DNA from: Candidatus Cloacimonadota bacterium
Lineage (GTDB): Bacteria; UBA4055
NCBI GenBank assembly: GCA_002742935.1
Contig: PDON01000064.1
Span: 8,514 to 72,513, forward strand
Reading direction: 5' to 3'
DNA: 64,000 bases
The translations under genes and the position numbers were made by a program. Below the pieces are notes generated by a model, which had not been told where the DNA came from, searched no databases, and worked only from the letters and a program-made list of their open reading frames with translations. Shown piece after piece: positions 1 through 52,610 of the stretch (positions are counted from its first letter, which is position 1; each line of letters starts with the position of its first letter).

Positions 1-1140
1 GATTGTGGTATTGTTCCTGTTCCTGAAAAAGATCTTCCTGTTACCCTTCCTGAAGGTGATCATATCGATTACAGACCAAAGGGTAAAGCACCTCTTTCAC
101 TTATAGATTCCTATATGAATACAAGCTGTCCAAAGTGTGGAAAAGCCGCTAAAAGAGATCCTGAAACTATGGACACATTTGTAGATTCTTCATGGTATTT
201 CCTAAGATATGTAAACCCTAAATTGGATGATAAACCTTTTGATAGTAACGAGGTAAATAGTTGGCTCCCTGCTGATCTCTACATTGGTGGTGCTGAACAT
301 ACAAACGGACACTTAATATACTCAAGATTTGTAACAAAAGTTTTATACGATATGGGATATATAAACTTTGAAGAACCATATAAAAAACTTGTACATCAAG
401 GTATGATTACAAGAAATGGTTCAAAGATGAGTAAGAGTAAAGGAAATGCTGTTTCTCCCGACTATTTTGTAGGAAAATATGGAACTGATGTGTTTAGACT
501 ATATGTTATGTTTATGACAAATTTTAGAGAAGGTGGAGATTGGTCAGATGAGGGTATTACCGGTCTTGATAGATTTGTAAATAGAATCTGGAGACAATTT
601 GTTGAAACAGAGTATGAGAATAGTGGAAATATGGTAATAGATCAAGATCTTAATTACTCTCTTCATAACACTATAAAGGAGGTTAGATCCAACTTAGAGG
701 ATTTATACTTTAATACTGCTATTTCCAGAATGATGGAGCTTTTTAATGAACTATCATCCTATACTAAAGACAGTAAAAGGTTTAATCCGGACTTCTACAA
801 CTTTGTTAAGGAGAAGTTTATACTGCTTTTAGCTCCTCTAGCTCCACATGTAAGTGAAGAGCTTTGGGAAAGATTAGGAAATAAACCTTCAATATTTAAT
901 CAAACAATGCCGGATTATGATGAAAAAGCTTTGGTTAAATCTACTCAGGTGGTGGTTGTTCAGGTTAATGGCAAGGTAAGAGCTAACATTGAAACCTCAA
1001 TTGAGGCTACGGATGATGAGATTAAGGATTTGGCTCTTAATGATACTAATGTCAAAAAGTTCTCTGAAGGTAAGACCATTGTCAAAACTATTTTGATAAA
1101 TAGAAAAGGTGGTAAAATGGTCAACCTTGTTGTTAAGTAG
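1..1140 (+). CDS. leuS: Leucine--tRNA ligase, C-terminal part; the 5' end lies upstream of the window
   Basis: The reading frame is open from nt 1 (DCGIVPVPEKDLPVTLPEGD...) and continues into the 115..1140 ORF. The ORF carries a LeuS zinc-knuckle and C-terminal anticodon-binding region (CPKCGKAAKRDPETMDTFVDSSWYFLRY, VQVNGKVRA). Confidence 0.88.
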   Translation, partial: DCGIVPVPEKDLPVTLPEGDHIDYRPKGKAPLSLIDSYMNTSCPKCGKAAKRDPETMDTFVDSSWYFLRYVNPKLDDKPFDSNEVNSWLPADLYIGGAEHTNGHLIYSRFVTKVLYDMGYINFEEPYKKLVHQGMITRNGSKMSKSKGNAVSPDYFVGKYGTDVFRLYVMFMTNFREGGDWSDEGITGLDRFVNRIWRQFVETEYENSGNMVIDQDLNYSLHNTIKEVRSNLEDLYFNTAISRMMELFNELSSYTKDSKRFNPDFYNFVKEKFILLLAPLAPHVSEELWERLGNKPSIFNQTMPDYDEKALVKSTQVVVVQVNGKVRANIETSIEATDDEIKDLALNDTNVKKFSEGKTIVKTILINRKGGKMVNLVVK

Positions 1141-1166: not shown

Positions 1167-1449
1167 TGTCTAATAAGTTAGCTGCAAACTTATTAGGAAA
1201 TGATGCAAGACTTTTAACCTATAGGAAATTAATAATGTAAGAGAGAATGTAGAGAGAGGTTGTATCCTCTCTCTACATTAGTCTTCTGTAACTTTATAGT
1301 TTTTATGTTTTTAAAAGAAAATCCTAGATATAGAAATTGCTTAGAAAATGGATTATAGGAAGAAATAATCCTTTAAAGAATATTCATTTCTTCGGTATTT
1401 ATTTTATGAAATAGTATATTTAATAGATCCTAAAATCTATGGAGAAAAA

Positions 1450-2891: not shown

Positions 2892-3353
2892 ATGAAGTAC
2901 CTGTTTACCCTAGCAGTTTTGCTATCTTTTACTTTTGTTTATTCGGTATCTTATGATTCAAAGGAATTAAAAAAAGTAAAAAAAGTTGAGAAAGTTGAGA
3001 AAGTAAAAAAAGTTGAGAAAAAAATTGATCTTAGACTTTGTGGAAATTGTGGAGAGGTTAAAGGTAGTGAAAATTGCTGTAAGCCAAATATGAAGGAATG
3101 CAGTAATTGTGGACTACATAAAGGATCTCCTGGATGTTGTAAGATGGAAAAAGGAAAAGATCTCAAGCTTTGTATTAAGTGTGGCGAGGTTAAAGGAAGT
3201 AAAAAATGTTGTGATCCTAAAATTAAAAAGTGTTCTAAGTGTGGATTACATAAAGGATCTCCGGCTTGTTGTGTAAAACATAAGCATAGAGATTATAAGA
3301 AGAAGATTAAAAAAGATCCTGCTTCTTGTAAAGTAAAGAGTAGTTGTAATTAG
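2892..3353 (+). CDS. Secreted cysteine-rich, lysine-rich repeat protein; putative metal-binding, metallothionein-like
   Basis: It has an N-terminal signal peptide, a KVEKVEKVKKVEK tract, and two 44-aa repeats each with 8 Cys in the pattern CxxC-x7-CC-x6-CxxC-x7-CC. The RBS is aggag-like (tagaggag). Confidence 0.55.
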   Translation: MKYLFTLAVLLSFTFVYSVSYDSKELKKVKKVEKVEKVKKVEKKIDLRLCGNCGEVKGSENCCKPNMKECSNCGLHKGSPGCCKMEKGKDLKLCIKCGEVKGSKKCCDPKIKKCSKCGLHKGSPACCVKHKHRDYKKKIKKDPASCKVKSSCN

Positions 3354-4631: not shown

Positions 4632-5738
4632 TTATTTATAATCTTTATTTGATATCTCTTTCCCTAGTTTATACTCTGTTTCCTGTATAAGTTTTCCTGC
4701 TAAATCATATCGCTTCCAAGTTCCATCTTTTTCGTCATTTTTATAATTACCTTCCCAGTTTACTCTGTTTGCTTCATTGTAGCTTTTATATAAACCATTC
4801 AGAACATCATCTTTATAAGTTCTTTCGGCAACTAAACGACCATCCTCTTCATAGAAAGTTTTCCAAATGCCTGTTTTAAAATCATCTTTGTAATTTCCCT
4901 CTTCCAGTTTAATACCTTTTTCACTGTATTTTTCAAAAAGACCATTTTTTTTGCCATGAGAAAAATTTAGAACTTCTTTTTTATTTCCATTTTTGTAGAA
5001 AACAACTACTTGTTCTATTTGATCTTTACTAAATGTTTCTTCACTCAGTAAAATTCCATCTTGATTATATCTCTTCTGTTTCCCATCCAGTTTGAAGTCT
5101 TTAAAGGTTTTATCAATTGACAACTTACCGTTAGGATAGTAACCTTTATGTCTGTAAGTTCCCTCATTCTCATATTCTCTTTCCCAATCTATTTTCCCAT
5201 CTGAATGTCTTTGCTCGGAATGCCCAAAATGTACGCCCTCTTTATAGTTTTCGGTAACATAGATTACAGCATTATTGGTAGTTTTACCTTTTTTCCACCA
5301 TTTCCCTTCTGCTTTACCATGTTTGTAGAACTCACGAGCTTTAACCTCTCCTTTATCATCAAAGTATTCCCATTTCCCTTCCTGTTTCCCATCTACAAAT
5401 TCACCTTCTGTACTCACTTTTCCATTTTGATGAAAACGTTTATAGTTTCCGTGTGTTTTACCATTTTTAAAAGATTTTTCACACAGCTTATGCTCTTTGT
5501 AGTCGTAATCTGTTTGGTTTCCAACTTTCTTTCCACCTTTAAAATGAACATCTATAAAATTACCTCGACTATCTGCAATTTTATAATGACCGTCTAAAAG
5601 ATTATTTGAATTATCTTTATACAAAATATCAGTACCAAACCTTTGCTCCTTAATCTCATTTTCCATTACCAAGTTTTGTGCAAAAATTTGTGATGCTATC
5701 AATAAACATCCGGCTATCAAGATTGCGATTCTTTTCAT
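4632..5738 (-). CDS. MORN-repeat-variant (YwqK-like) lipoprotein
   Basis: It has a signal peptide ending LIAGCLL and many GxxxGxWxxYxxNGK-like repeats (GKKVGNQTDY..., GKTHGNYKRFHQNGK..., GKQEGKWEYFDDKGE...). Confidence 0.55.
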   Translation of the reverse strand: MKRIAILIAGCLLIASQIFAQNLVMENEIKEQRFGTDILYKDNSNNLLDGHYKIADSRGNFIDVHFKGGKKVGNQTDYDYKEHKLCEKSFKNGKTHGNYKRFHQNGKVSTEGEFVDGKQEGKWEYFDDKGEVKAREFYKHGKAEGKWWKKGKTTNNAVIYVTENYKEGVHFGHSEQRHSDGKIDWEREYENEGTYRHKGYYPNGKLSIDKTFKDFKLDGKQKRYNQDGILLSEETFSKDQIEQVVVFYKNGNKKEVLNFSHGKKNGLFEKYSEKGIKLEEGNYKDDFKTGIWKTFYEEDGRLVAERTYKDDVLNGLYKSYNEANRVNWEGNYKNDEKDGTWKRYDLAGKLIQETEYKLGKEISNKDYK

Positions 5739-7670: not shown

Positions 7671-7710
7671 ATAGCCTAAAAGAAGCTCAAATGAGATTCT
7701 TTTAGGCTAT
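7671..7710. other. 14-bp-stem intergenic hairpin
   Basis: Arms atagcctaaaagaa and ttcttttaggctat form a perfect inverted repeat around a 12-nt loop. Confidence 0.3.
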
Positions 7711-7723
7711 TAATTTGTAAGTA

Positions 7724-9535
7724 CTATTTAACAAGTATCATCTTCTTAGTTTCACTAAAACCATTTACGGAAAGTTTATAGAAATAAACACCGGAATTTA
7801 AGCTTTCAGCATTAAATTCAACGGAGTGGTAACCACTACCCATATCTCTATCTATGAGAGTATTAATAATCTCACCGTTTGAGTTGAAAATTTGGAGTTT
7901 AACGCTAGAATCATCTGAAATTTTGAAATTTATAGAAGTTTTAGGGTTAAATGGATTTGGATAATTTTGTGAAAGATAAAACCCTTTTACCATATTTAAC
8001 TCGTTAGTTGATATCCCGGAGCTAAAAGATATAGATACATTATCAATAGACCAGTTGTTTATTTGATAAGAGTCTCCTGAAAATTGGAAAGCTATATATA
8101 GAGAACTTGACCCAACATGATTGTTTGAAATTTCCATAAAAAATGACTCAGGACCAATATTTTGGGTGTTGTCAAAAGTATGAACAACTTCCCAATTCAC
8201 ACTATCTGTAGAGGTGACAATTTTACAATCATAACCAGGTCCATAATAGTTTATCATATGATCAAAAGATAAAAAAACAGAAGATTTTCCCGAAGTATCT
8301 AGAGGTTTAACTATAAGATATTGTTCTCCAACAGTAGCAGGATTCCAATAAAACTCCGCTTCAGGAGAAGAACCTCCCGCATTGCTTGAATATCCATGCC
8401 TCCAATTATTACCTTTAACTATCCAACCTTCAGGAGGGAAGTTTTCAAACCCTTCAAACACTAAAGTATTACCGGTAATAAAGGAAACCGTATTTGATAC
8501 AGCCTCTAATCCTGCTCCTATATTATTAACAGCGACAACAGTATAATTGTAGTTTGAAGATAGAGGTATAGTGTTGTCTGAAAATGAGGTAGCCATACCC
8601 TCTAAAGTAAACTCTTGTCCATCATTTCTGGTAATAGAGTAAGAGATTATAGAGTCATAAATATACAAACCACCATTAGCTCCAACTGTAGGGTTTTCCC
8701 AACTTAATTCTGCTATACCCTCATTGTTAACAAGTGTAAGGTTATTAACCATTCCCGGTACATCTTCACCAACATAAATTGATGTTTTTGTAGGTAATCC
8801 CTCACCTGCTTCATTAACACCAACAATCTTATAGGTGTACAAACCACTTTCAGGTATTGAACTATCCATATACTCTTTCTCTTCACCCATTTCAGGAGAA
8901 TCAAAACTTGTTATGAGGGTTTCGTTTCTATAAAGCTTAACAGCTGTAAGAGAAGTTAAAGGCTCTCCACTAAATGTAATACTAGGATTTTTCCACGAAA
9001 GATCAACATTAAAAGAGTTATTGTTATTTAATGTTGAAGTAAAATCTGTTGGAGCTCCCGGAGCACCACTATCAAACATTTCATTCATTGCAAGCTTTAA
9101 TTGAACATCAAAGTTTCTATCATTGTCATTATAGTAAACCTTATAGTCTCTGCCTATCACACCAAACAAAGGTACATATCCATTTGAAAAGCCACCTGAG
9201 TTGTCATACAGAGGCAAAGATATTGGATAGTTTTGATTTTCCCAATTTTCAGTACAAACCCAAAAAGATCTTCCTGCCCACTCGGTTCCGGAATTTTCTC
9301 CGTAAATTTCCGCCCATTTCTCCTGTAATATCGGCGCCGCCGAGGTACAGCCACCTCACCACGACTGACCCCAAAAAATCATTACTACTTTACCTTCATC
9401 AACCTGCTCATAGATTGATGTTTCTAAACCATCTTCTGTAGTGAAGCTGATGTTTTCACATACATCCCCTATAGCATATTCTGCTGGAAGTAGAGAAGCC
9501 AAAACCATTAAAAATAAAATTAAAGTTTTTTTCAT
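7724..9535 (-). CDS. Secreted TlpA-like thioredoxin-fold selenoprotein (UGGC motif) fused to Fn3/beta-sandwich domains and a T9SS C-terminal sorting domain; paralog 1. The ORF track shows only 7724..9217
   Basis: ATG at 9535 has an AAGGAGGG RBS and is followed by signal peptide MKKTLILFLMVLASLLPAEYA. The frame is open apart from a single in-frame TGA at 9358..9356 (codon 60) in the context VVMIFWGQSW-U-GGCTSAAPIL. A thioredoxin-like cis-Pro region (GYVPLFGVIGRDYKV) follows. The C-terminus (NYPNPFNP...VYFYKLSVNGF...MILVK) is a classic T9SS sorting tail. Confidence 0.55.
9318..9358 (-). promoter_or_regulatory. Candidate bacterial SECIS element directly 3' of the in-frame UGA of paralog 1
   Basis: UGA-GGU-GGC-UGU-ACC-UCG-GCG-GCG-CCG is an anomalously GC-rich codon choice in an AT-rich genome. 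GAGGU/ACCUC and CGGC-GGC-GCCG mini-hairpins can form. The same block is conserved at nucleotide level in paralog 2. Confidence 0.3.
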
Positions 9536-9667
9536 AAAAGTACCCTCCTTATGTAAGACATTTACGTATAAATTTATCTCTATAATAATATAACAAACAA
9601 AAAAAATAGCATGCTGGCAAGAGAAAAAAATATTTAAAACTAGTTAATATAGTCTCACATTTAAAAT

Positions 9668-9700
9668 AAAAAGCCTCCAATTTTGGAGGCTTTTTATTTT
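9668..9700. terminator. Terminator hairpin downstream of paralog 2, usable from either strand
   Basis: aaaagcctccaattttggaggctttt is flanked by A/T runs on both sides. Confidence 0.5.
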
Positions 9701-9719
9701 AAATATTTTTAAGAAAGTG

Positions 9720-11522
9720 TTACTTAACAAGTATCATTTTCTTAGTTTCACTAATACCGTTTACTGAAAGTTTATAGAAATAAACACCAGAATTTAAGCT
9801 TTCTGCATTAAATTCAACAGAGTGATAACCGCTACTCATATCCTTATCTACAAGAGTACTAACAAGCTCACCGTTTGAGTTGAAAACAGCTAAATTAACA
9901 GCTGATCTACTTGAAGTATTAAAGCTTATAGTAGTTGTAGGATTAAATGGATTTGGATAGTTTTGTGAAAGAGTGAACTCTTTTACACTATTGAATTCAT
10001 CAATTGAAGAGTTTAAAGCAATTGAAACATCATCAATATACCAATCATTTATTTGATAAGAGTCTCCTGAGAACATAAAAGCAAGATAAAATGTTTCAGA
10101 TCCAACATGATCATTTGAAATCTCTGTAGAGAATAGTTCCGGTCCTATATCTTGACCAGGGAAAGTATGAGCAACCTCCCAGTTTTCCATATCTGTAGAA
10201 GTAACTATTTTACACTCATAGCCAGGACCATAATAGTCAATCATATTGTTAAAAGCAATAGATATAGAACTTTTTCCTGATGTGTCTAAAGGCCTAGTTA
10301 TAAGGTATTGATCACCAACAGTTTGAGGAGACCATCCAAACTTAGCCTCAGGTGCTGTCCCACCGGCATAATTTGCATATGAAGCTCTCCAATTTTCACC
10401 TTGAACAGTCCACCCTTCAGGAGGAAAGTTTTCAAAGGTTTCAAGTAGTAATGTTGAGTTTGGAATAAAGCTAACTGTATTTGATACGGCCTCTAACCCG
10501 GCTCCTACATTATTATTAGCTACAACGGTGTAACTATAGTTTCCGGCTAGTGTTATAGAGTTGTCTGAAAAGGATGTAGTCATACCTTCTAAAGTAAACT
10601 CTTCACCATCATTTCTAGTAATAGTATAAGAGGTTATAGAGTTTTCTACATAGTATCCGTTATGTGCTCCAACCATTGGATTTGTCCAACTTAGATCAGC
10701 AACTCCATTATTATCAACTAAGTTAAGCCCGGTAACCATTCCCGGAGCATCTTCACCAATATAAACTGTTTTAGAGCAAGGAATTCCTTTGCCTGCTTCA
10801 TTAACACATTGAATTTTATAGATATGTAAACCCTCTTCAGAAATAGAGTTGTCCGTATAACTCATTTCTGCTCCTACCTCAGGAGATTCAAAGCTATTAA
10901 CTAACTCTCCATCCAAGTAAAGGTTAATATTTGATATTGAAGGCAAAGGAGCTTGACCTATTGTTTGAGAAGGGTTTGTCCAAGAAAGATCTACGCTAAG
11001 AGCTCCTTCTCCATCAGGAGTTACTGAAAAGTTACTTGGAGCTAATGGAGCTGCACTATCATACATTCCATTCATTGCAAGCTTCAATTGTTGCTCAAAA
11101 TTTGTAGAGTTAGAATTGTAGTAAACTTTGTAATCCTTACCTATAATTCCAAACATAGGAACATATCCGTTATCAAAGCCACCTATATTATTGTATAAAG
11201 GTACCGATATAGGATAGTTTTGATTTTCCCAATTTTCAGTACAAACCCAAAAAGATCTTCCTGCCCACTCAGTCCCTGAGTTGGTACCGTAAGTATTTTC
11301 CCACATCTGTTGTAAAACCGGCGCCGCCGATACACAACCACCTCAACCACTGCTTCCCCAGAAGATTAGAACGACCTTCTCTTGATCAACCTGCTCATAG
11401 ATTGATGTTTCTAAACCATCCTCTGTAGTAAAGCTAATGTTTTCGCATACATCTCCTATAGCATATTCTGCTGAAAGGAGAGAAGCCAAAACCATTAAAA
11501 ATGAAATTAAAACTTTCTTCAT
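9720..11522 (-). CDS. Secreted TlpA-like thioredoxin-fold selenoprotein (UGGC motif) with Fn3/beta-sandwich domains and a T9SS C-terminal domain; paralog 2. The ORF track shows only 9720..11306
   Basis: ATG at 11522 has an AGGAG RBS and is followed by signal peptide MKKVLISFLMVLASLLSAEYA. A single in-frame TGA at 11345..11343 is again codon 60, in the context VVLIFWGSSG-U-GGCVSAAPVL. The same T9SS tail is present. The protein is about 70% identical to paralog 1. Confidence 0.55.
11306..11345 (-). promoter_or_regulatory. Candidate SECIS element 3' of the UGA of paralog 2
   Basis: UGA-GGU-GGU-UGU-GUA-UCG-GCG-GCG-CCG conserves the same rare GC-rich codons (tcg gcg gcg ccg) as paralog 1. Confidence 0.3.
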
Positions 11523-11687
11523 AGAAGTCTCCTAAAAATTATACCAACAAAAACTAAGTATGGAATGAAACAATAAAAACTATACATTTGCAAGTGAAAA
11601 ACTAAAAAAAATAACTTTAAATTTGAAAACATTAACATTATATTTAAGTAGATTTTATTTTGTTTTTTTTAAGAAACTGGTGGTGTA

Positions 11688-20640: not shown

Positions 20641-20671
20641 TTTTATTTTTAATTCTTTAATCATATAAAAT

Positions 20672-20703
20672 ACCCCTCTAAATTTTTAGAGGGGTATTTT
20701 TAT
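20672..20703 (+). terminator. Rho-independent terminator after rnfB
   Basis: cccctctaaatttttagagggg is followed by tattttta. Confidence 0.6.
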
Positions 20704-20714
20704 TCAGAGTGCCT

Positions 20715-20811
20715 ATAACTTCGTATTACTGTTAATTCTTCTGTAATGGATCGCATAAAAAGGAAATTCCTTTACCTGTTTCTAGCCAGTCTGACTTTTT
20801 AAGGCAACCTC
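20715..20811 (+). repeat. Intergenic repeat family, copy A; a shorter variant with an internal deletion
   Basis: ataacttcgtattactgtt ... atcgcataaaaag ... gtttctagccagtctgactttttaaggcaacctc aligns to copies at 22860 and 52399. Confidence 0.55.
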
Positions 20812-21086
20812 ATATTTAGAATCTAATGAAAACTCTCATTTGAGTTTTATGTTACACAATATTACTCATTAAAAACTTATTTCAAATTTAACTAATGAAA
20901 TTTTTTATAACTTTTAGCAGTTATTTATTGTTTAAATCAAAAAAGTTAGTTTAATTAATACTTATCTTTATGTTTTCATTAGTGAAAATGTTGGGCATAG
21001 GTTTTATTTTTGAAAGTTTATTTTCTTTGTATAATAAATTTTAAAATTTATACAATTTTTAACTCTTATAATTTTGGTGGTTTTAT

Positions 21087-22826
21087 ATGGTTTCGGATAT
21101 TGGAAATAAATACACATTAATGAGAGAGAAATATTTAATCAGAGTTGAAGATATGATTAAAAGGATAGAAAAACATAATGACCATGTTGATCGAAATCTT
21201 ATTATTGACTCCTATAAAATAGCTTTTAATGCTCATAAAGGTGTTTACAGAGACGATAATGTAACCCCTTATATTGAACATCCTGTAGAGGTTGCAGAGA
21301 TACTTTCTGAGTTGAAAGTTGATGATGCTACACTTTCAGCGGCTTTACTTCACGATGTTGTAGAGGATACAATTATAACCGGAACAGATTTAAGAAGAAA
21401 GTATGGTGATATTGTCAGTTCCATTGTTGAAGGTTTAACAAAGAAGAAACAAAAATTTGGTTCAGTTGCAGAGAAGCAAACTACCCATTTTAAAAAGCTT
21501 TTGGAAAGCACAATAGGCGAGTTCCGTATAATAATTGTTAAAATGGCAGATAGGGTTCACAATATGAAAACGTTGGGAGCTTTGTCTTACGACAGAAAAA
21601 GTAGAATTGCGAATGAAACCAAAAACATATTCTCACCATTGGCAAATATGTTGGGGATGCATAAGTTTAAAATTGAGCTTGATGATCTTATCTTTCTTTC
21701 TTTAGATCCTGAAAAGTTTAAAAGGATAAAAAACTCTGTAGATGAGTATGAAGCTAGGAATAAGCAAAGAGTTGATAACACAATAAATAAGCTTAGTGAC
21801 GAATTTGAGAGATTGGGTATAAAAGCAGATGTTATTGTAAATAAAAGGTCCTACTCATCAATTGCAGAAAAGATTAAACATAGAAACTTTGAGGAGTCAA
21901 AAAAATTTTTTTCTGTTAAAGTGGTTACAAAAGACAGCTCAAACATGTATAATATTCTTGAGCATATACACAGGTTGTTTAAACCTCTAAATCAGGTAAG
22001 TGATTATATAGCTTCTCCTAAACCAAACGGATACAAAAGTATTCATACAAAGGTAAGAACCGATGATGGTTATGTTTATGAGTTTTTGATAAGATCAAGA
22101 CTTATGGATGAGTTAGCAGAATATGGTCTTATTCATACAATCTATACAATGAGTAGAACTACAGATGAAGATAATAATAATACTGTAAAAACTTATGTAA
22201 ACTCCATGAAAAATCTTTATCAGGAGAGTTTTATTGATGAAGGGGATCATTCGGGAGTATGGGGTAATTTAGTAAGCAATCTTGTAACTGATTTTATACA
22301 TGTTTCTTCGCCCAAAAATGAGGTTTATACGCTTCCTAAAGGATCTTGTATATTAGATTTTGCATATAAGATACATACAGATCTTGGAGATCACTGTATT
22401 CCGAGTAAAGTCAACGGAAAAACAAGACCAATAAGTTTTAAATTGAGAGATGATGATGTTATTACAATATCAACCTCTGAGAAGCAATCTCCCAAAGAGG
22501 ATTGGTTGGATTTTGTTCAAACACCTAAAGCAGCAAAACATATAAAGAGAGCACTAAAAGATAAGTACAAAAATCTTGATATTGATTTCAAAAAAGATAA
22601 GATTATTAAAAAAATAGAGTTCTCAACAGATTTTCGTTTAGGACTTCTATCAAAAATTGAAGAGAAGATAAATATGGTAGATAAGATCATATCAATGAAC
22701 CTAAAGATAGAGAATGATATTGCAATAATTGCAATAGAGGCCGAGTTTAATAATCAAAAATGTTTAGATGATTTTATATTATATATAAATTCAATGGATT
22801 CTATATTTGATCTACACATAGAGTAG
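21087..22826 (+). CDS. RelA/SpoT-family (p)ppGpp synthetase/hydrolase
   Basis: It has an HD hydrolase motif (HPVEVAEIL...ALLHDVVEDT) and a synthetase region (YKSIHTKVRT). At 579 aa it is short for the family. Confidence 0.75.
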   Translation: MVSDIGNKYTLMREKYLIRVEDMIKRIEKHNDHVDRNLIIDSYKIAFNAHKGVYRDDNVTPYIEHPVEVAEILSELKVDDATLSAALLHDVVEDTIITGTDLRRKYGDIVSSIVEGLTKKKQKFGSVAEKQTTHFKKLLESTIGEFRIIIVKMADRVHNMKTLGALSYDRKSRIANETKNIFSPLANMLGMHKFKIELDDLIFLSLDPEKFKRIKNSVDEYEARNKQRVDNTINKLSDEFERLGIKADVIVNKRSYSSIAEKIKHRNFEESKKFFSVKVVTKDSSNMYNILEHIHRLFKPLNQVSDYIASPKPNGYKSIHTKVRTDDGYVYEFLIRSRLMDELAEYGLIHTIYTMSRTTDEDNNNTVKTYVNSMKNLYQESFIDEGDHSGVWGNLVSNLVTDFIHVSSPKNEVYTLPKGSCILDFAYKIHTDLGDHCIPSKVNGKTRPISFKLRDDDVITISTSEKQSPKEDWLDFVQTPKAAKHIKRALKDKYKNLDIDFKKDKIIKKIEFSTDFRLGLLSKIEEKINMVDKIISMNLKIENDIAIIAIEAEFNNQKCLDDFILYINSMDSIFDLHIE

Positions 22827-22859
22827 GTTACCAATCACCGGCAGTTGAGCTCAGACTGT

Positions 22860-22992
22860 CGATAAACTTCGCATTACTGCGTCCTAATTTTTTTCTGCTC
22901 AAATCACCTAGTATTTCTAGGCTCAAATCGCATAAAAAAATGACTCCTTGTACTACTCGTTTCTAGACAGCCTGACTTTTTAAGGCAACCTC
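22860..22992 (+). repeat. Intergenic repeat family, copy B (full length)
   Basis: cgataaacttcgcattactgcg...cctagtatttctaggct...atcgcataaaaaaa...tactactcgtttctagacagcctgactttttaaggcaacctc is about 80% identical to copy C. Confidence 0.6.
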
Positions 22993-22994
22993 TA

Positions 22995-23033
22995 AAAATC
23001 CTCTCTATAAAATTTTATAGAGGGGATTTTTAT
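22995..23033 (+). terminator. Terminator-like hairpin flanking repeat copy B
   Basis: atcctctctataaaattttatagaggggat is followed by ttttta. Its stem sequence resembles the hairpin at 20672. Confidence 0.45.
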
Positions 23034-52209: not shown

Positions 52210-52228
52210 GATTTTATAGAAAATGGAA

Positions 52229-52258
52229 AAAGGGATCAAAATTTGATCCCTTTTTTGT
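52229..52258 (+). terminator. Rho-independent terminator after nqrF
   Basis: aaagggatcaaaatttgatcccttt is followed by tttt. Confidence 0.6.
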
Positions 52259-52398
52259 TCTGGAAATAAAGGATATAAGGGTAAAGATAACCTCAGTTCG
52301 AGATAGGTATTTATCCAATATTTGTTTTATCTCGAATGATACAACTGTATTGATCAGTCTGGGAAAAGTTTTAAGATTTTTTAAAATCTACAGGCTAC

Positions 52399-52523
52399 CG
52401 ATAAGCTTCGCATTACTGCGTTATCAAATTTTTATGTTCAAATTACCCAGTATTTCTAGGCTATGGATCAGATAAAAATTGGATTCTTTATACTACTAGT
52501 TTATCGAAATTCTGACTTTTTAT
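52399..52523 (+). repeat. Intergenic repeat family, copy C
   Basis: cgataagcttcgcattactgcg...cccagtatttctaggct...tactactagtttatcgaaattctgacttttta aligns along the full length of copy B. Confidence 0.6.
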
Positions 52524-52610
52524 AGTACTTTTTTTGTATCCAAAGATCCTCTTTTTCTTATCAAAAAGAATCAAAAGATTAAATAAAAAAAAGAGGATGC
52601 CAAACTTTTG

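What the first reader, a model, noticed from the sequence alone, without database searches (positions are those of the whole stretch)
20715..20811. Novel intergenic repeat family, three copies, always just 3' of an operon end (rnf, relA/spoT, nqr)
Copies at 20715-20811, 22860-22992 and 52399-52523 share the blocks cgataaRcttcgcattactgcg, cctagtatttctaggct, atcRSataaaaa and tactactNgtttMtMgaMaNYctgactttttaWRG. Copy A carries an internal deletion. All are on the same strand, lie next to terminator hairpins of the same style (cctct..taaa..ttttagagggg), and contain internal palindromes such as ctag-tattt-ctag. This resembles a small-RNA gene family or a MITE that targets terminator regions. I do not recognise it as a known RNA family.
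Basis: seen in the sequence. Interest (0 to 1): 0.65.

Follow-up and report, generated by a model that had tools for sequence, protein, structure and literature searches.

The report
Hairpin-targeting miniature mobile element family
The three look-alike intergenic segments belong to a family of at least 20 small non-coding mobile DNA elements in an uncultured Cloacimonadota bacterium; they insert at the foot of terminator hairpins and often duplicate the whole hairpin, an unusual insertion footprint for an otherwise ordinary kind of genomic parasite.

Summary
Copies A (20704-20812), B (22851-22993) and C (52390-52533) are homologous (nhmmer E 4e-19 to 8e-44), all on the + strand, each just 3' of a gene end beside a terminator hairpin. 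A is a short form.

The window is contig PDWJ01000350.1 of a Candidatus Cloacimonadota MAG. One pattern scan found 17 more full copies plus fragments on 14 PDWI/PDWJ contigs. I found none in the GTDB species representatives, IMG/VR, plasmids, phages or Rfam, and none at the relA loci of the nearest relatives.

- **Flanking repeats:** 6 of 20 copies carry direct repeats of 17-24+ bp that abut both ends and coincide with an entire stem-loop.
- **Hairpin adjacency:** 13 of 20 copies have a hairpin ending within 2 nt of the 5' end, against 3% of random positions.
- **Position and orientation:** 18 of 20 lie beside a gene 3' end, but orientation relative to that gene is mixed.
- **RNA evidence:** covariation is not convincing, and I found no promoter-like site.

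Best reading: a non-autonomous, MITE-like transposon with structure-dependent targeting of stem-loops. Whole-hairpin duplication regenerates the terminator downstream. The closest known behaviour is IS1272 (IS1182 family). No transposase partner was found. The sRNA reading is weakly supported.

The parts
20704..20812 (+). Copy A. Short, degenerate form lacking the optional P5 hairpin and a few other bases. It lies after the rnfB terminator and 275 nt upstream of relA.
   Evidence: nhmmer E 3.6e-19. CM 77.6 bits. Alignment A2.
20670..20703 (.). rnf-operon terminator: stem-loop ATACCCCTCTAAATTTTTAGAGGGGTAT plus T-tract, immediately 5' of copy A.
   Evidence: Read directly from the sequence. Rfam terminator-type partial matches.
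22851..22993 (+). Copy B. Full-length and the best-scoring copy of the family. It starts 25 nt after the relA stop codon.
   Evidence: nhmmer E 7.7e-44. CM 168.9 bits.
22993..23032 (.). relA terminator: A-tract, stem-loop CCTCTCTATAAAATTTTATAGAGGGG and T-tract, abutting the 3' end of copy B.
   Evidence: 15 paired positions starting at the boundary.
52337..52389 (+). 5' extension specific to the C-type subfamily (..ATCGATCAGTCTGGGAAAAGTTTTAAGATTTTTTAAAATCT). It ends in the mini-hairpin AGATTTTTTAAAATCT (52374-52389), which abuts the core.
   Evidence: The same extension is conserved in L003 (two copies) and L004.
52390..52533 (+). Copy C. Full-length core of the C-type subfamily, in the convergent nqrF / groEL spacer.
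   Evidence: nhmmer E 1.8e-33. CM 139.6 bits.
52227..52255 (.). nqr-operon terminator (AAAAAGGGATCAAAATTTGATCCCTTTTT), upstream of copy C.

Best explanation
The three segments are copies of a non-autonomous, MITE-like mobile DNA element. It is about 143 bp long, with a short form of about 118 bp and a long C-type of about 215 bp. So far it has been seen only in one Candidatus Cloacimonadota lineage.

Anatomy (read from the sequence):
- a 5' end, (T)CAGACTGCC
- a small hairpin, CGCATTACTGCG
- an A/T-rich stem capped by an optional hairpin, CCTAGTATTTCTAGG
- a conserved block, CCTTGTACTACTCG
- an internal inverted copy of the 5' end, GCCAGTCTGA
- a tail, CTTTTTAAGGCAACCTC(A), whose last 10 nt are a degenerate second inverted copy of the 5' end

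Mechanism (inferred): a transposase supplied in trans recognises DNA stem-loops or cruciforms by shape rather than by sequence. These are mostly intrinsic-terminator hairpins at gene 3' ends. It joins the element ends at the two feet of the palindrome. Repair then duplicates the whole stem-loop, giving target duplications whose length tracks the hairpin (17-24+ bp).

Consequence (inferred): the upstream hairpin copy loses its T-tract, while the downstream copy keeps it. The host gene therefore still terminates, with a 3' UTR about 160 nt longer, and the insertion is close to neutral.

The enzyme is unknown. The closest documented behaviour is the DDE transposase of IS1272 (IS1182 family).
For: **Copy number and distribution**
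- Multi-copy: 20 full copies plus 4-5 fragments.
- An independent assembly breaks its contig inside copies A and B.
- Lineage-restricted. There were 0 true hits in 185,579 GTDB species representatives, IMG/VR, and plasmids and phages. There were none at the relA loci of the nearest relatives.

**Target duplications**
- 6 of 20 copies have direct repeats abutting both element ends, with scores of 12-24. Mismatched flank pairs gave a mean of 6.0 and a 99th percentile of 11.5.
- Each repeat is a complete stem-loop that differs between loci. Examples: L006 AAGGGTAGTAAAAATACTACCCTT on both sides; L013 AGAGATAGGAAATTTCCTATCTCT; L012 GGCATAAAATCTTATGCC; L008 ATTACTCTCCTAAAAGTAAT; L010 AGATCTTGGAAAGATCT.

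**Hairpin targeting**
- A stem of at least 6 bp ends within 2 nt of the 5' boundary in 13 of 20 copies.
- One starts within 2 nt of the 3' boundary in 7 of 20 copies.
- The rate at random positions is 3%.

**Position and orientation**
- 18 of 20 copies adjoin a gene 3' end.
- Orientation is mixed relative to the adjacent gene and to the local coding strand. This fits insertion into double-stranded DNA rather than a transcript-linked function.

**Precedent**
- IS1272 targets stem-loops of variable size and sequence just downstream of genes.
- The published model explicitly predicts whole-stem-loop duplication if joining occurs at the 5' feet of a cruciform (PMC5678879, Fig 13 pathway b).
Against: - No autonomous partner or transposase was found in the window or on contig L012, the only other locus whose ORFs were scanned. 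No long repeat is shared between the other loci.
- Terminal inverted repeats are weak. The well-conserved inverted repeat is subterminal at the 3' end, and the terminal 10 nt match the 5' end at only 7 of 10 positions.
- 14 of 20 copies lack a recognisable duplication.
- Copies differ from one another by about 22% on average, with a maximum identity of 93%, so no demonstrably recent jump was seen.
- No empty site was available to prove insertion.
- IS1272 itself deletes the stem-loop rather than duplicating it.
Confidence: 0.7

Rival explanations
1. A family of small RNAs or 3'-UTR RNA modules. The element is transcribed, either from its own promoter or by read-through from the upstream gene. 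It folds into a multi-stem structure and acts as a regulatory or stabilising RNA. Its spread is secondary.
For: - The + strand folds into a consistent four-helix structure, with 91.9% of cells paired against 26-44% when partners are slid.
- Copy B has z-scores of -2.5 (+ strand) and -3.5 (- strand).
- Substitutions compatible with G.U on the + strand outnumber the A.C type: about 22 to 13 overall and 8 to 2 in the CGCATTACTGCG hairpin (my count).
- Predicted unpaired blocks are highly conserved, for example CCTTGTACTACTCG.
- All three window copies are sense to the upstream gene. Where the hairpin is duplicated, the first hairpin lacks its T-tract, so read-through transcription is expected.
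Against: - The two covariation measures that are robust to relatedness equal their shuffled controls: 6 against 5.6 pairs, and 18 against 17.8 pair types.
- The outer helix has 5-7 broken pairs out of 20 at two positions.
- Orientation relative to the adjacent gene is mixed: 12 same, 6-7 opposite.
- No sigma-70-like promoter lies in the elements.
- There is no Rfam match.
- The element is not conserved in the nearest relatives.
- Target duplications show that its distribution is set by insertion, not by function.
Confidence: 0.12
2. A retro-mobile, SINE-like element. The structured + strand RNA is copied into nicked terminator DNA by a reverse transcriptase supplied in trans, for example from a class C group II intron, which also homes to terminator stem-loops. 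This gives variable-length duplications and 5'-truncated copies.
For: - The duplication length is variable.
- Three of four fragments are 3' parts: L012 2873-2931, L012 7507-7465 and L008 2906-2975.
- There is a bias towards + strand wobble pairs.
- Terminal inverted repeats are weak.
- The target class is the same as that of bacterial class C group II introns (my own knowledge: Robart, Seo and Zimmerly 2007).
Against: - At 143 nt the element is too small to hold the group II ribozyme domains, and no group II or other ribozyme match appeared in Rfam.
- No reverse transcriptase is encoded in the window.
- Class C introns do not duplicate the hairpin.
- The duplications coincide exactly with palindrome boundaries, as expected for recognition of a DNA cruciform.
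- Target-primed non-intron retroposition is not known in bacteria.
Confidence: 0.07
3. A REP/REPIN-like or IS200/IS605-derived (PATE-like) element, moved as single-stranded DNA by a HUH (Y1) transposase that recognises hairpins.
For: - The element is close to hairpins.
- It has strand-specific folding potential.
- Other hairpin-bearing small repeats (X2, X3) occur in the same genomes and nest against it.
Against: - HUH Y1 elements insert without target duplication, yet 6 of 20 copies have duplications of 17-24 bp.
- No conserved tetra- or pentanucleotide target lies 5' of the element.
- The element has no subterminal hairpin at its 3' end.
- Orientation shows no bias relative to the local coding strand.
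- The hairpins belong to the target, because they differ between loci; they are not part of the element.
Confidence: 0.05

Closest known systems
IS1272 / IS1182-family insertion sequences (structure-dependent, stem-loop-targeting transposition; Wan et al. 2017, PMC5678879)
   Same: - The targets are inverted-repeat or stem-loop structures of variable length and sequence, typically just downstream of genes.
- Recognition appears to be by shape, not by sequence.
- Duplicated terminal-IR sequence occurs at one end.
- The published model includes an outcome (pathway b) in which the whole stem-loop is duplicated, which is what is seen here.
   Different: - IS1272 is an autonomous IS encoding a DDE transposase, with 16-bp terminal IRs.
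- Its observed insertions replace (delete) the stem-loop and leave no duplication.
- The present element is 143 bp and non-coding, has only weak terminal IRs, and duplicates the stem-loop.
- No sequence relationship to any IS1182-family end or transposase was tested or shown.
Bacterial MITEs in general (e.g. Correia/NEMIS, RUP, ERIC, Nezha)
   Same: - They are small, non-coding, multi-copy and intergenic.
- They are foldable because of inverted repeats.
- They have subfamilies with internal deletions, and they nest with other repeats.
   Different: - Typical MITEs have clear terminal IRs matching a parent IS, and short duplications of fixed length (2-10 bp).
- Here the duplication is long, variable and equal to the target palindrome, and no parent IS is known.
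Bacterial class C group II introns
   Same: They home to the foot of intrinsic-terminator stem-loops, which is a neutral landing site.
   Different: - Introns are ribozymes of at least about 600 nt with conserved 5' GUGYG and domain V motifs.
- They insert in one orientation relative to transcription and make no duplication.
- None of these features applies here.
IS1397/ISKpn1 and IS110/IS1111-family elements that insert into REP or attC palindromes; SPRITE terminator-like repeats of pneumococcus
   Same: They show a preference for extragenic palindromes or terminator-like sequences.
   Different: - Those IS elements recognise specific repeated palindrome families and insert inside them, with 0-4 bp duplications.
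- SPRITE carries the terminator-like hairpin within itself.
- Here the hairpins are unrelated host terminators, duplicated on both sides.

Membership tests
MITE (non-autonomous DNA transposon) | Small (under about 500 bp), non-coding, dispersed in many copies | tested here: met
   Length is 108-145 bp. There are 20 full copies plus fragments on 15 contigs. No ORF is present.
MITE (non-autonomous DNA transposon) | Target-site duplications flanking the copies | tested here: met
   6 of 20 copies have abutting direct repeats of 17-24+ bp, far above the mismatched-flank control. The length is atypical.
MITE (non-autonomous DNA transposon) | Terminal inverted repeats | tested here: inconclusive
   The 5' end TCAGACTGCC matches the internal GCCAGTCTGA at 9 of 10 positions, but that copy sits 20 nt from the 3' end. 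It matches the terminal GGCAACCTCA at 7 of 10 (alignment A2).
MITE (non-autonomous DNA transposon) | A parent IS with the same ends and a transposase | not testable with these tools
   None was found in the window or on contig L012, the only other locus whose ORFs were scanned, and no long shared repeat links the other loci.
MITE (non-autonomous DNA transposon) | Presence/absence polymorphism (empty sites) | not testable with these tools
   No orthologous empty locus was available. The nearest relatives share 67% and 50% amino-acid identity in RelA and have different synteny.
IS1182 family (IS1272-like) derivative | Targets stem-loop structures of variable sequence, often just downstream of genes | tested here: met
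   compared with PMC5678879.
IS1182 family (IS1272-like) derivative | Stem-loop replaced, with no duplication (the outcome observed for IS1272) | tested here: not met
   Here the stem-loop is duplicated. This corresponds to the hypothetical pathway b of the same paper.
IS1182 family (IS1272-like) derivative | Ends homologous to the IRs of an IS1182-family IS, and a DDE transposase of that family in the genome | not tested
   No reference IR or transposase sequence from this lineage was available.
Any Rfam RNA family | Covariance-model score at or above the gathering threshold | tested here: not met
   There were 0 matches at gathering threshold in the whole window. At permissive thresholds only terminator-type noise appeared.
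Independent small-RNA gene | Own promoter and terminator, with conserved structure supported by covariation | tested here: inconclusive
   No sigma-70-like promoter was found, though the host's promoter type is unknown. Foldability is high, but the relatedness-robust covariation measures equal their controls.
Class C group II intron | Ribozyme domains (5' GUGYG, domain V), at least about 600 nt, fixed orientation after the terminator | tested here: not met
   The element is 143 nt, starts with CAGAC, has no Rfam intron match and has mixed orientation.
IS200/IS605-derived PATE or REP | No target duplication, a conserved short target 5' of the element, and subterminal hairpins at both ends | tested here: not met
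   Duplications are present. The 5' flanks are variable. There is no 3' subterminal hairpin.

The most novel reading that the evidence does not exclude
This family may be the first natural example of structure-dependent transposition in which the transposase joins the element to the two feet of an extruded terminator cruciform. That would duplicate the whole stem-loop, which is the outcome only hypothesised as 'pathway b' for IS1272.

The duplication would rebuild a working terminator downstream. Terminators would then serve as a self-repairing safe haven for a transposon.

A still more radical possibility is that the element moves through its structured + strand RNA, as a bacterial SINE-like retroposon.
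Probability: 0.4. Interest if true: 0.65.

Novelty: new variant of a known kind. Interest (0 to 1): 0.5.

Why it matters
Its target duplication length would be set by the target palindrome, not by the enzyme's geometry.

It also illustrates a neutral landing strategy. Insertion between the stem and the T-tract of an intrinsic terminator, with duplication of the stem-loop, leaves termination intact and only lengthens the 3' UTR.

There are practical consequences too. The repeats break short-read assemblies of this poorly sampled Cloacimonadota lineage. They could be mistaken for sRNA genes or riboswitch-like 3' elements in annotation. They might also serve as strain markers.

Tried and rejected
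**Known RNA families.** Rfam found nothing at gathering threshold in the whole window. Permissive scans over all three copies gave only terminator-type noise.

**Copies elsewhere.**
- The first GTDB species-representative pattern scan found 0 hits.
- A looser pattern found 2 hits. Both are chance matches with no homology to the profile.
- IMG/VR: 0 hits with two patterns.
- PLSDB plasmids and INPHARED phages with sensitive blastn: no match.

**Conservation at orthologous positions.** The two nearest RelA homologues (67% and 50% identity) were fetched with their contigs. Neither the HMM nor the CM detects the element there. Their synteny differs, so they are not true empty sites.

**Autonomous partner.** The window and contig L012 encode only housekeeping genes. 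All-against-all blastn of the loci shows no shared long repeat. The L006/L016 similarity is between paralogous C-termini of the genes upstream of the two copies, not an empty site.

**Guide-like complementarity.** I inspected the variable 3' tail against the flanking hairpins by eye and found no general relation.

**Strand bias.** There is no consistent bias of orientation relative to the local coding strand, which argues against a replication-fork or single-stranded DNA mechanism.

**Composite transposon.** I considered reading A-relA-B as a composite transposon flanked by similar hairpins. The two hairpins are only generically similar terminators, so I did not pursue it.

**Literature.** Two searches for terminator-duplicating MITEs or insertion sequences found nothing relevant. 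A search on IS1182 then turned up the IS1272 structure-dependent model. The FEMS review of IS families could not be retrieved.

Full report
**1. The observation**

The three segments are real and homologous.

A profile HMM built from the wider family scores copy B at E = 7.7e-44, C at 1.8e-33 and A at 3.6e-19. A covariance model gives 168.9, 139.6 and 77.6 bits and finds no fourth copy in the 64 kb window.

The real extents are A 20704-20812, B 22851-22993 and C 52390-52533. They start 8-10 nt further 5' than reported, because the element begins with (T)CAGACTG. All three lie on the + strand.

The gene context is as stated:
- A follows the rnfB terminator and precedes a relA/spoT homologue.
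- B starts 25 nt after the relA stop codon and is followed by a terminator.
- C lies between the nqrF terminator and the convergent groEL terminator.

**2. Where the window comes from, and how big the family is**

The RelA protein is encoded on PDWJ01000350.1 (GCA_002754885.1), which NCBI annotates as a MAG of Candidatus Cloacimonadota.

An exact two-block pattern found nothing in 185,579 GTDB species representatives. In the metagenome collection it found 14 stretches, all on PDWI or PDWJ contigs.

HMM and CM searches of those loci give 17 further full-length copies and 4-5 fragments.

Searches elsewhere:
- A looser pattern on the GTDB representatives gave two hits, both chance matches with no profile similarity.
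- IMG/VR, plasmids and phages hold nothing.
- Rfam has no matching family at gathering or permissive thresholds.
- The nearest RelA homologues are only 67% and 50% identical. Their contigs lack the element.

An independent Logan assembly of run SRR6011892 produced a contig that begins inside copy A's conserved 3' block (window 20783) and ends inside copy B's conserved 5' block (window 22880). This is the expected behaviour at a multi-copy repeat.

The family is therefore real, multi-copy and, as far as can be seen, confined to one poorly sampled lineage.

**3. Anatomy**

The alignment of 20 copies (A2) has 82% mean column identity. Pairwise identity averages 78% and reaches at most 93%.

The element reads, from 5' to 3':
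- (T)CAGACTGCC
- a variable 6-7 nt
- CTT, then the hairpin CGCATTACTGCG, then TCATC
- a T-run
- the optional hairpin CCTAGTATTTCTAGG
- ATCGCAT and an A-run
- ATTCCTTGTACTACTCG
- TTCTAG-CCAGTCTGA
- CTTTTTAAGGCAACCTC(A)

Four copies (window A, L015, L011, L012b) lack the optional hairpin. Copies such as L016 carry ATGGATC on both sides of that hairpin, so the short form is explained by deletion between these short direct repeats.

The 5' end TCAGACTGCC is repeated in inverted orientation twice at the 3' end. One copy is internal (GCCAGTCTGA, 9 of 10 matches). The other is terminal and degenerate (GGCAACCTCA, 7 of 10 matches).

The C-type subfamily (window C, two copies in L003, one in L004) shares an additional 5' extension of about 55 nt and a 3' extension of about 12-25 nt.

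**4. The decisive feature: the flanks**

In six of the 20 copies, the sequence immediately 5' of the element is repeated immediately 3' of it:

| Locus | Flanking repeat | Match |
|---|---|---|
| L006 | AAGGGTAGTAAAAATACTACCCTT | 24 of 24 |
| L012 | GGCATAAAATCTTATGCC(T) | 19 of 19 |
| L013 | AGAGATAGGAAATTTCCTATCTCT | 22 of 24; both differences lie in the loop |
| L008 | AATTACTCTCCTAAAAGTAATA | 20 of 22 |
| L010 | AGATCTTGGAAAGATCT | 16 of 17 |
| L009 | AAAAGGATAGTCATT... | cut off by the end of the locus |

These repeats score 12-24. Upstream flanks paired with downstream flanks of other loci gave a mean of 6.0 and a 99th percentile of 11.5. Every repeat starts exactly at the element boundary.

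Each repeat is a complete stem-loop. The sequences differ from locus to locus, so they belong to the target and not to the element. Their length (17-24 bp or more) follows the size of the palindrome.

Where a T-tract is present, it follows only the downstream copy. An example is L013: ...TATCTCT|TTTTTTTATGG.

More generally:
- A stem of at least 6 bp ends within 2 nt of the 5' boundary in 13 of 20 copies.
- One begins within 2 nt of the 3' boundary in 7 of 20 copies.
- The rate at random positions of the same loci is 3%.

Copies with a hairpin on one side only, or with different hairpins on the two sides, are about equally frequent on either side once the C-type is counted as one event. I attribute these to decay or to recombination between copies. 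This is inference.

**5. Position and orientation**

Using long ORFs as gene proxies, 18 of 20 copies adjoin at least one gene 3' end. Only one lies between divergent gene starts.

Orientation is not fixed. Twelve copies are co-oriented with the upstream gene, and six or seven are antisense to the only gene whose 3' end they adjoin. There is also no consistent relation to the local coding-strand majority.

It does not hold as a rule about strand.

**6. Is it an RNA?**

The + strand can fold into four helices. With that structure, 91.9% of alignment cells pair, against 26-44% when partners are slid. Cells with changes on both sides number 24 against 12.5 in shuffles.

The two measures that are robust to relatedness equal their controls, however: pairs with a double change are 6 against 5.6, and further pair types are 18 against 17.8. 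The outer helix is broken in 5-7 of 20 copies at two positions.

Much of the apparent covariation comes from two subfamilies of the inverted repeat (CGATAAGC/GCTTCTCG against CTACCAAC/GTTTCTAG). Mosaic copies that mismatch also exist.

G.U-compatible substitutions favour the + strand, about 22 to 13 overall and 8 to 2 in the small hairpin (my count). This is suggestive but could reflect mutation bias.

No sigma-70-like promoter lies in any window copy, although the host's promoter type is unknown.

I conclude that the fold is a property of the inverted repeats and internal palindromes. Selection for an RNA function is not demonstrated. Sense copies are nevertheless probably co-transcribed into 3' UTRs (inference).

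**7. Mechanism**

The combination of evidence points to a non-autonomous transposon whose transposase chooses stem-loops by structure:
- many diverged copies
- lineage restriction
- random orientation
- a strong preference for stem-loops of unrelated sequence
- duplication of exactly the stem-loop

A direct precedent is IS1272 of the IS1182 family. New insertions of IS1272 hit inverted-repeat structures of 22-30 bp with different sequences, mostly just downstream of genes (PMC5678879).

The authors' model has the 3' OH ends of the element attacking an extruded cruciform:
- Attack at the 3' feet deletes the stem-loop. This is what IS1272 does.

The second outcome is the footprint seen here. The same paper notes duplicated terminal-IR sequence at one end of IS1272, which recalls the double inverted repeat at the 3' end of this element.

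Status of each step:
- Shown: the duplications, and the enrichment of hairpins at the boundaries.
- Inferred: the cruciform intermediate, a DDE enzyme, and any IS1182 affiliation.

No transposase was found in the window or on contig L012, and no long repeat is shared between the other loci.

**8. Consequence for the host (inferred)**

Insertion separates the original stem-loop from its T-tract, but the duplicated stem-loop downstream keeps the T-tract. Termination is therefore expected to move about 160 nt downstream rather than be lost. That would make terminators a near-neutral landing site, and it explains the accumulation at gene 3' ends.

**9. Rivals**

- A functional sRNA or 3'-UTR module (about 0.12) is disfavoured by mixed orientation, lack of robust covariation and absence from relatives.
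- A SINE-like retro-element (about 0.07) would explain the variable duplications and the excess of 3' fragments. It has no supporting reverse transcriptase or ribozyme features.
- A HUH-type (REP, IS200/IS605) element (about 0.05) is contradicted by the duplications and by the lack of a conserved target motif.

**10. Verdict**

The family is new: it is unmatched in Rfam, the GTDB representatives, IMG/VR, plasmids and phages. It belongs to a known kind, MITE-like repeats. Its unusual feature is a set of palindrome-sized, variable target duplications, which fit a published but previously hypothetical branch of structure-dependent transposition.

I rate it 'new variant of a known kind', with interest 0.5.

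Noticed in passing
L011 ~940-1011 (-); L012 2940-3000 (+); L012 5975-5996 (inverted): A second small repeat family (X2) begins with the GC-rich hairpin AGCCGTTGCRYGCAACGGCT followed by CTACAATTCATA... It directly abuts copies of the element in three places, so the element appears to use other repeats' hairpins as targets too.
   Followed up: partly
L007 ~1340-1409 (-); L003 ~11200-11275 (-); L014 ~8610-8668 (inverted); L012 ~5700-5735: A third repeat family (X3) reads AGCCCTTTACGGGCTRCCGATTCCACCATTTTTAGGAAACTATTTTATAATTTCCTAAAAA. Its hairpin plus ...TTCCACCA resembles a tRNA 3' end (T-arm-like stem, acceptor strand, CCA). It also abuts the element at both kinds of end.
   Followed up: no
L012 2873-2931: A 3' fragment of the element overlaps the end of a nicotinate phosphoribosyltransferase gene (ORF 1410-2891) and supplies its last codons and stop codon.
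   Followed up: partly
window 20783 and 22880 (ends of Logan contig L002): An independent assembly of run SRR6011892 breaks its relA contig inside the conserved blocks of copies A and B. The repeat evidently fragments short-read assemblies of this organism.
   Followed up: yes
window 21087-22826: The RelA/SpoT homologue is short (579 aa: HD, RelA_SpoT and TGS domains only). It lacks the C-terminal ACT/RIS domains present in nearly all other homologues (mostly 700-750 aa). Its two nearest relatives (593 and 594 aa) share this truncation.
   Followed up: no
window 7708-11533: A tandem pair of diverged paralogous genes (72-87% nucleotide identity, 1987-nt register) encodes proteins with a Por_Secre_tail (type IX secretion) sorting domain.
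   Followed up: no
window 52350-52376; also L003 and L004 C-type copies: The C-type 5' extension contains GATCAGTCTGGGAAAAGTTTTAAG. This resembles the element's own 3' block CCAGTCTGACTTTTTAAGG and may be the remnant of an older nested or tandem insertion.
   Followed up: no
window 2961-3272: A lysine/glutamate-rich coding tandem repeat (9-nt units, AAAGTTGAGAAAG-like, plus a 132-nt repeat) lies inside ORF 2892-3353.
   Followed up: no
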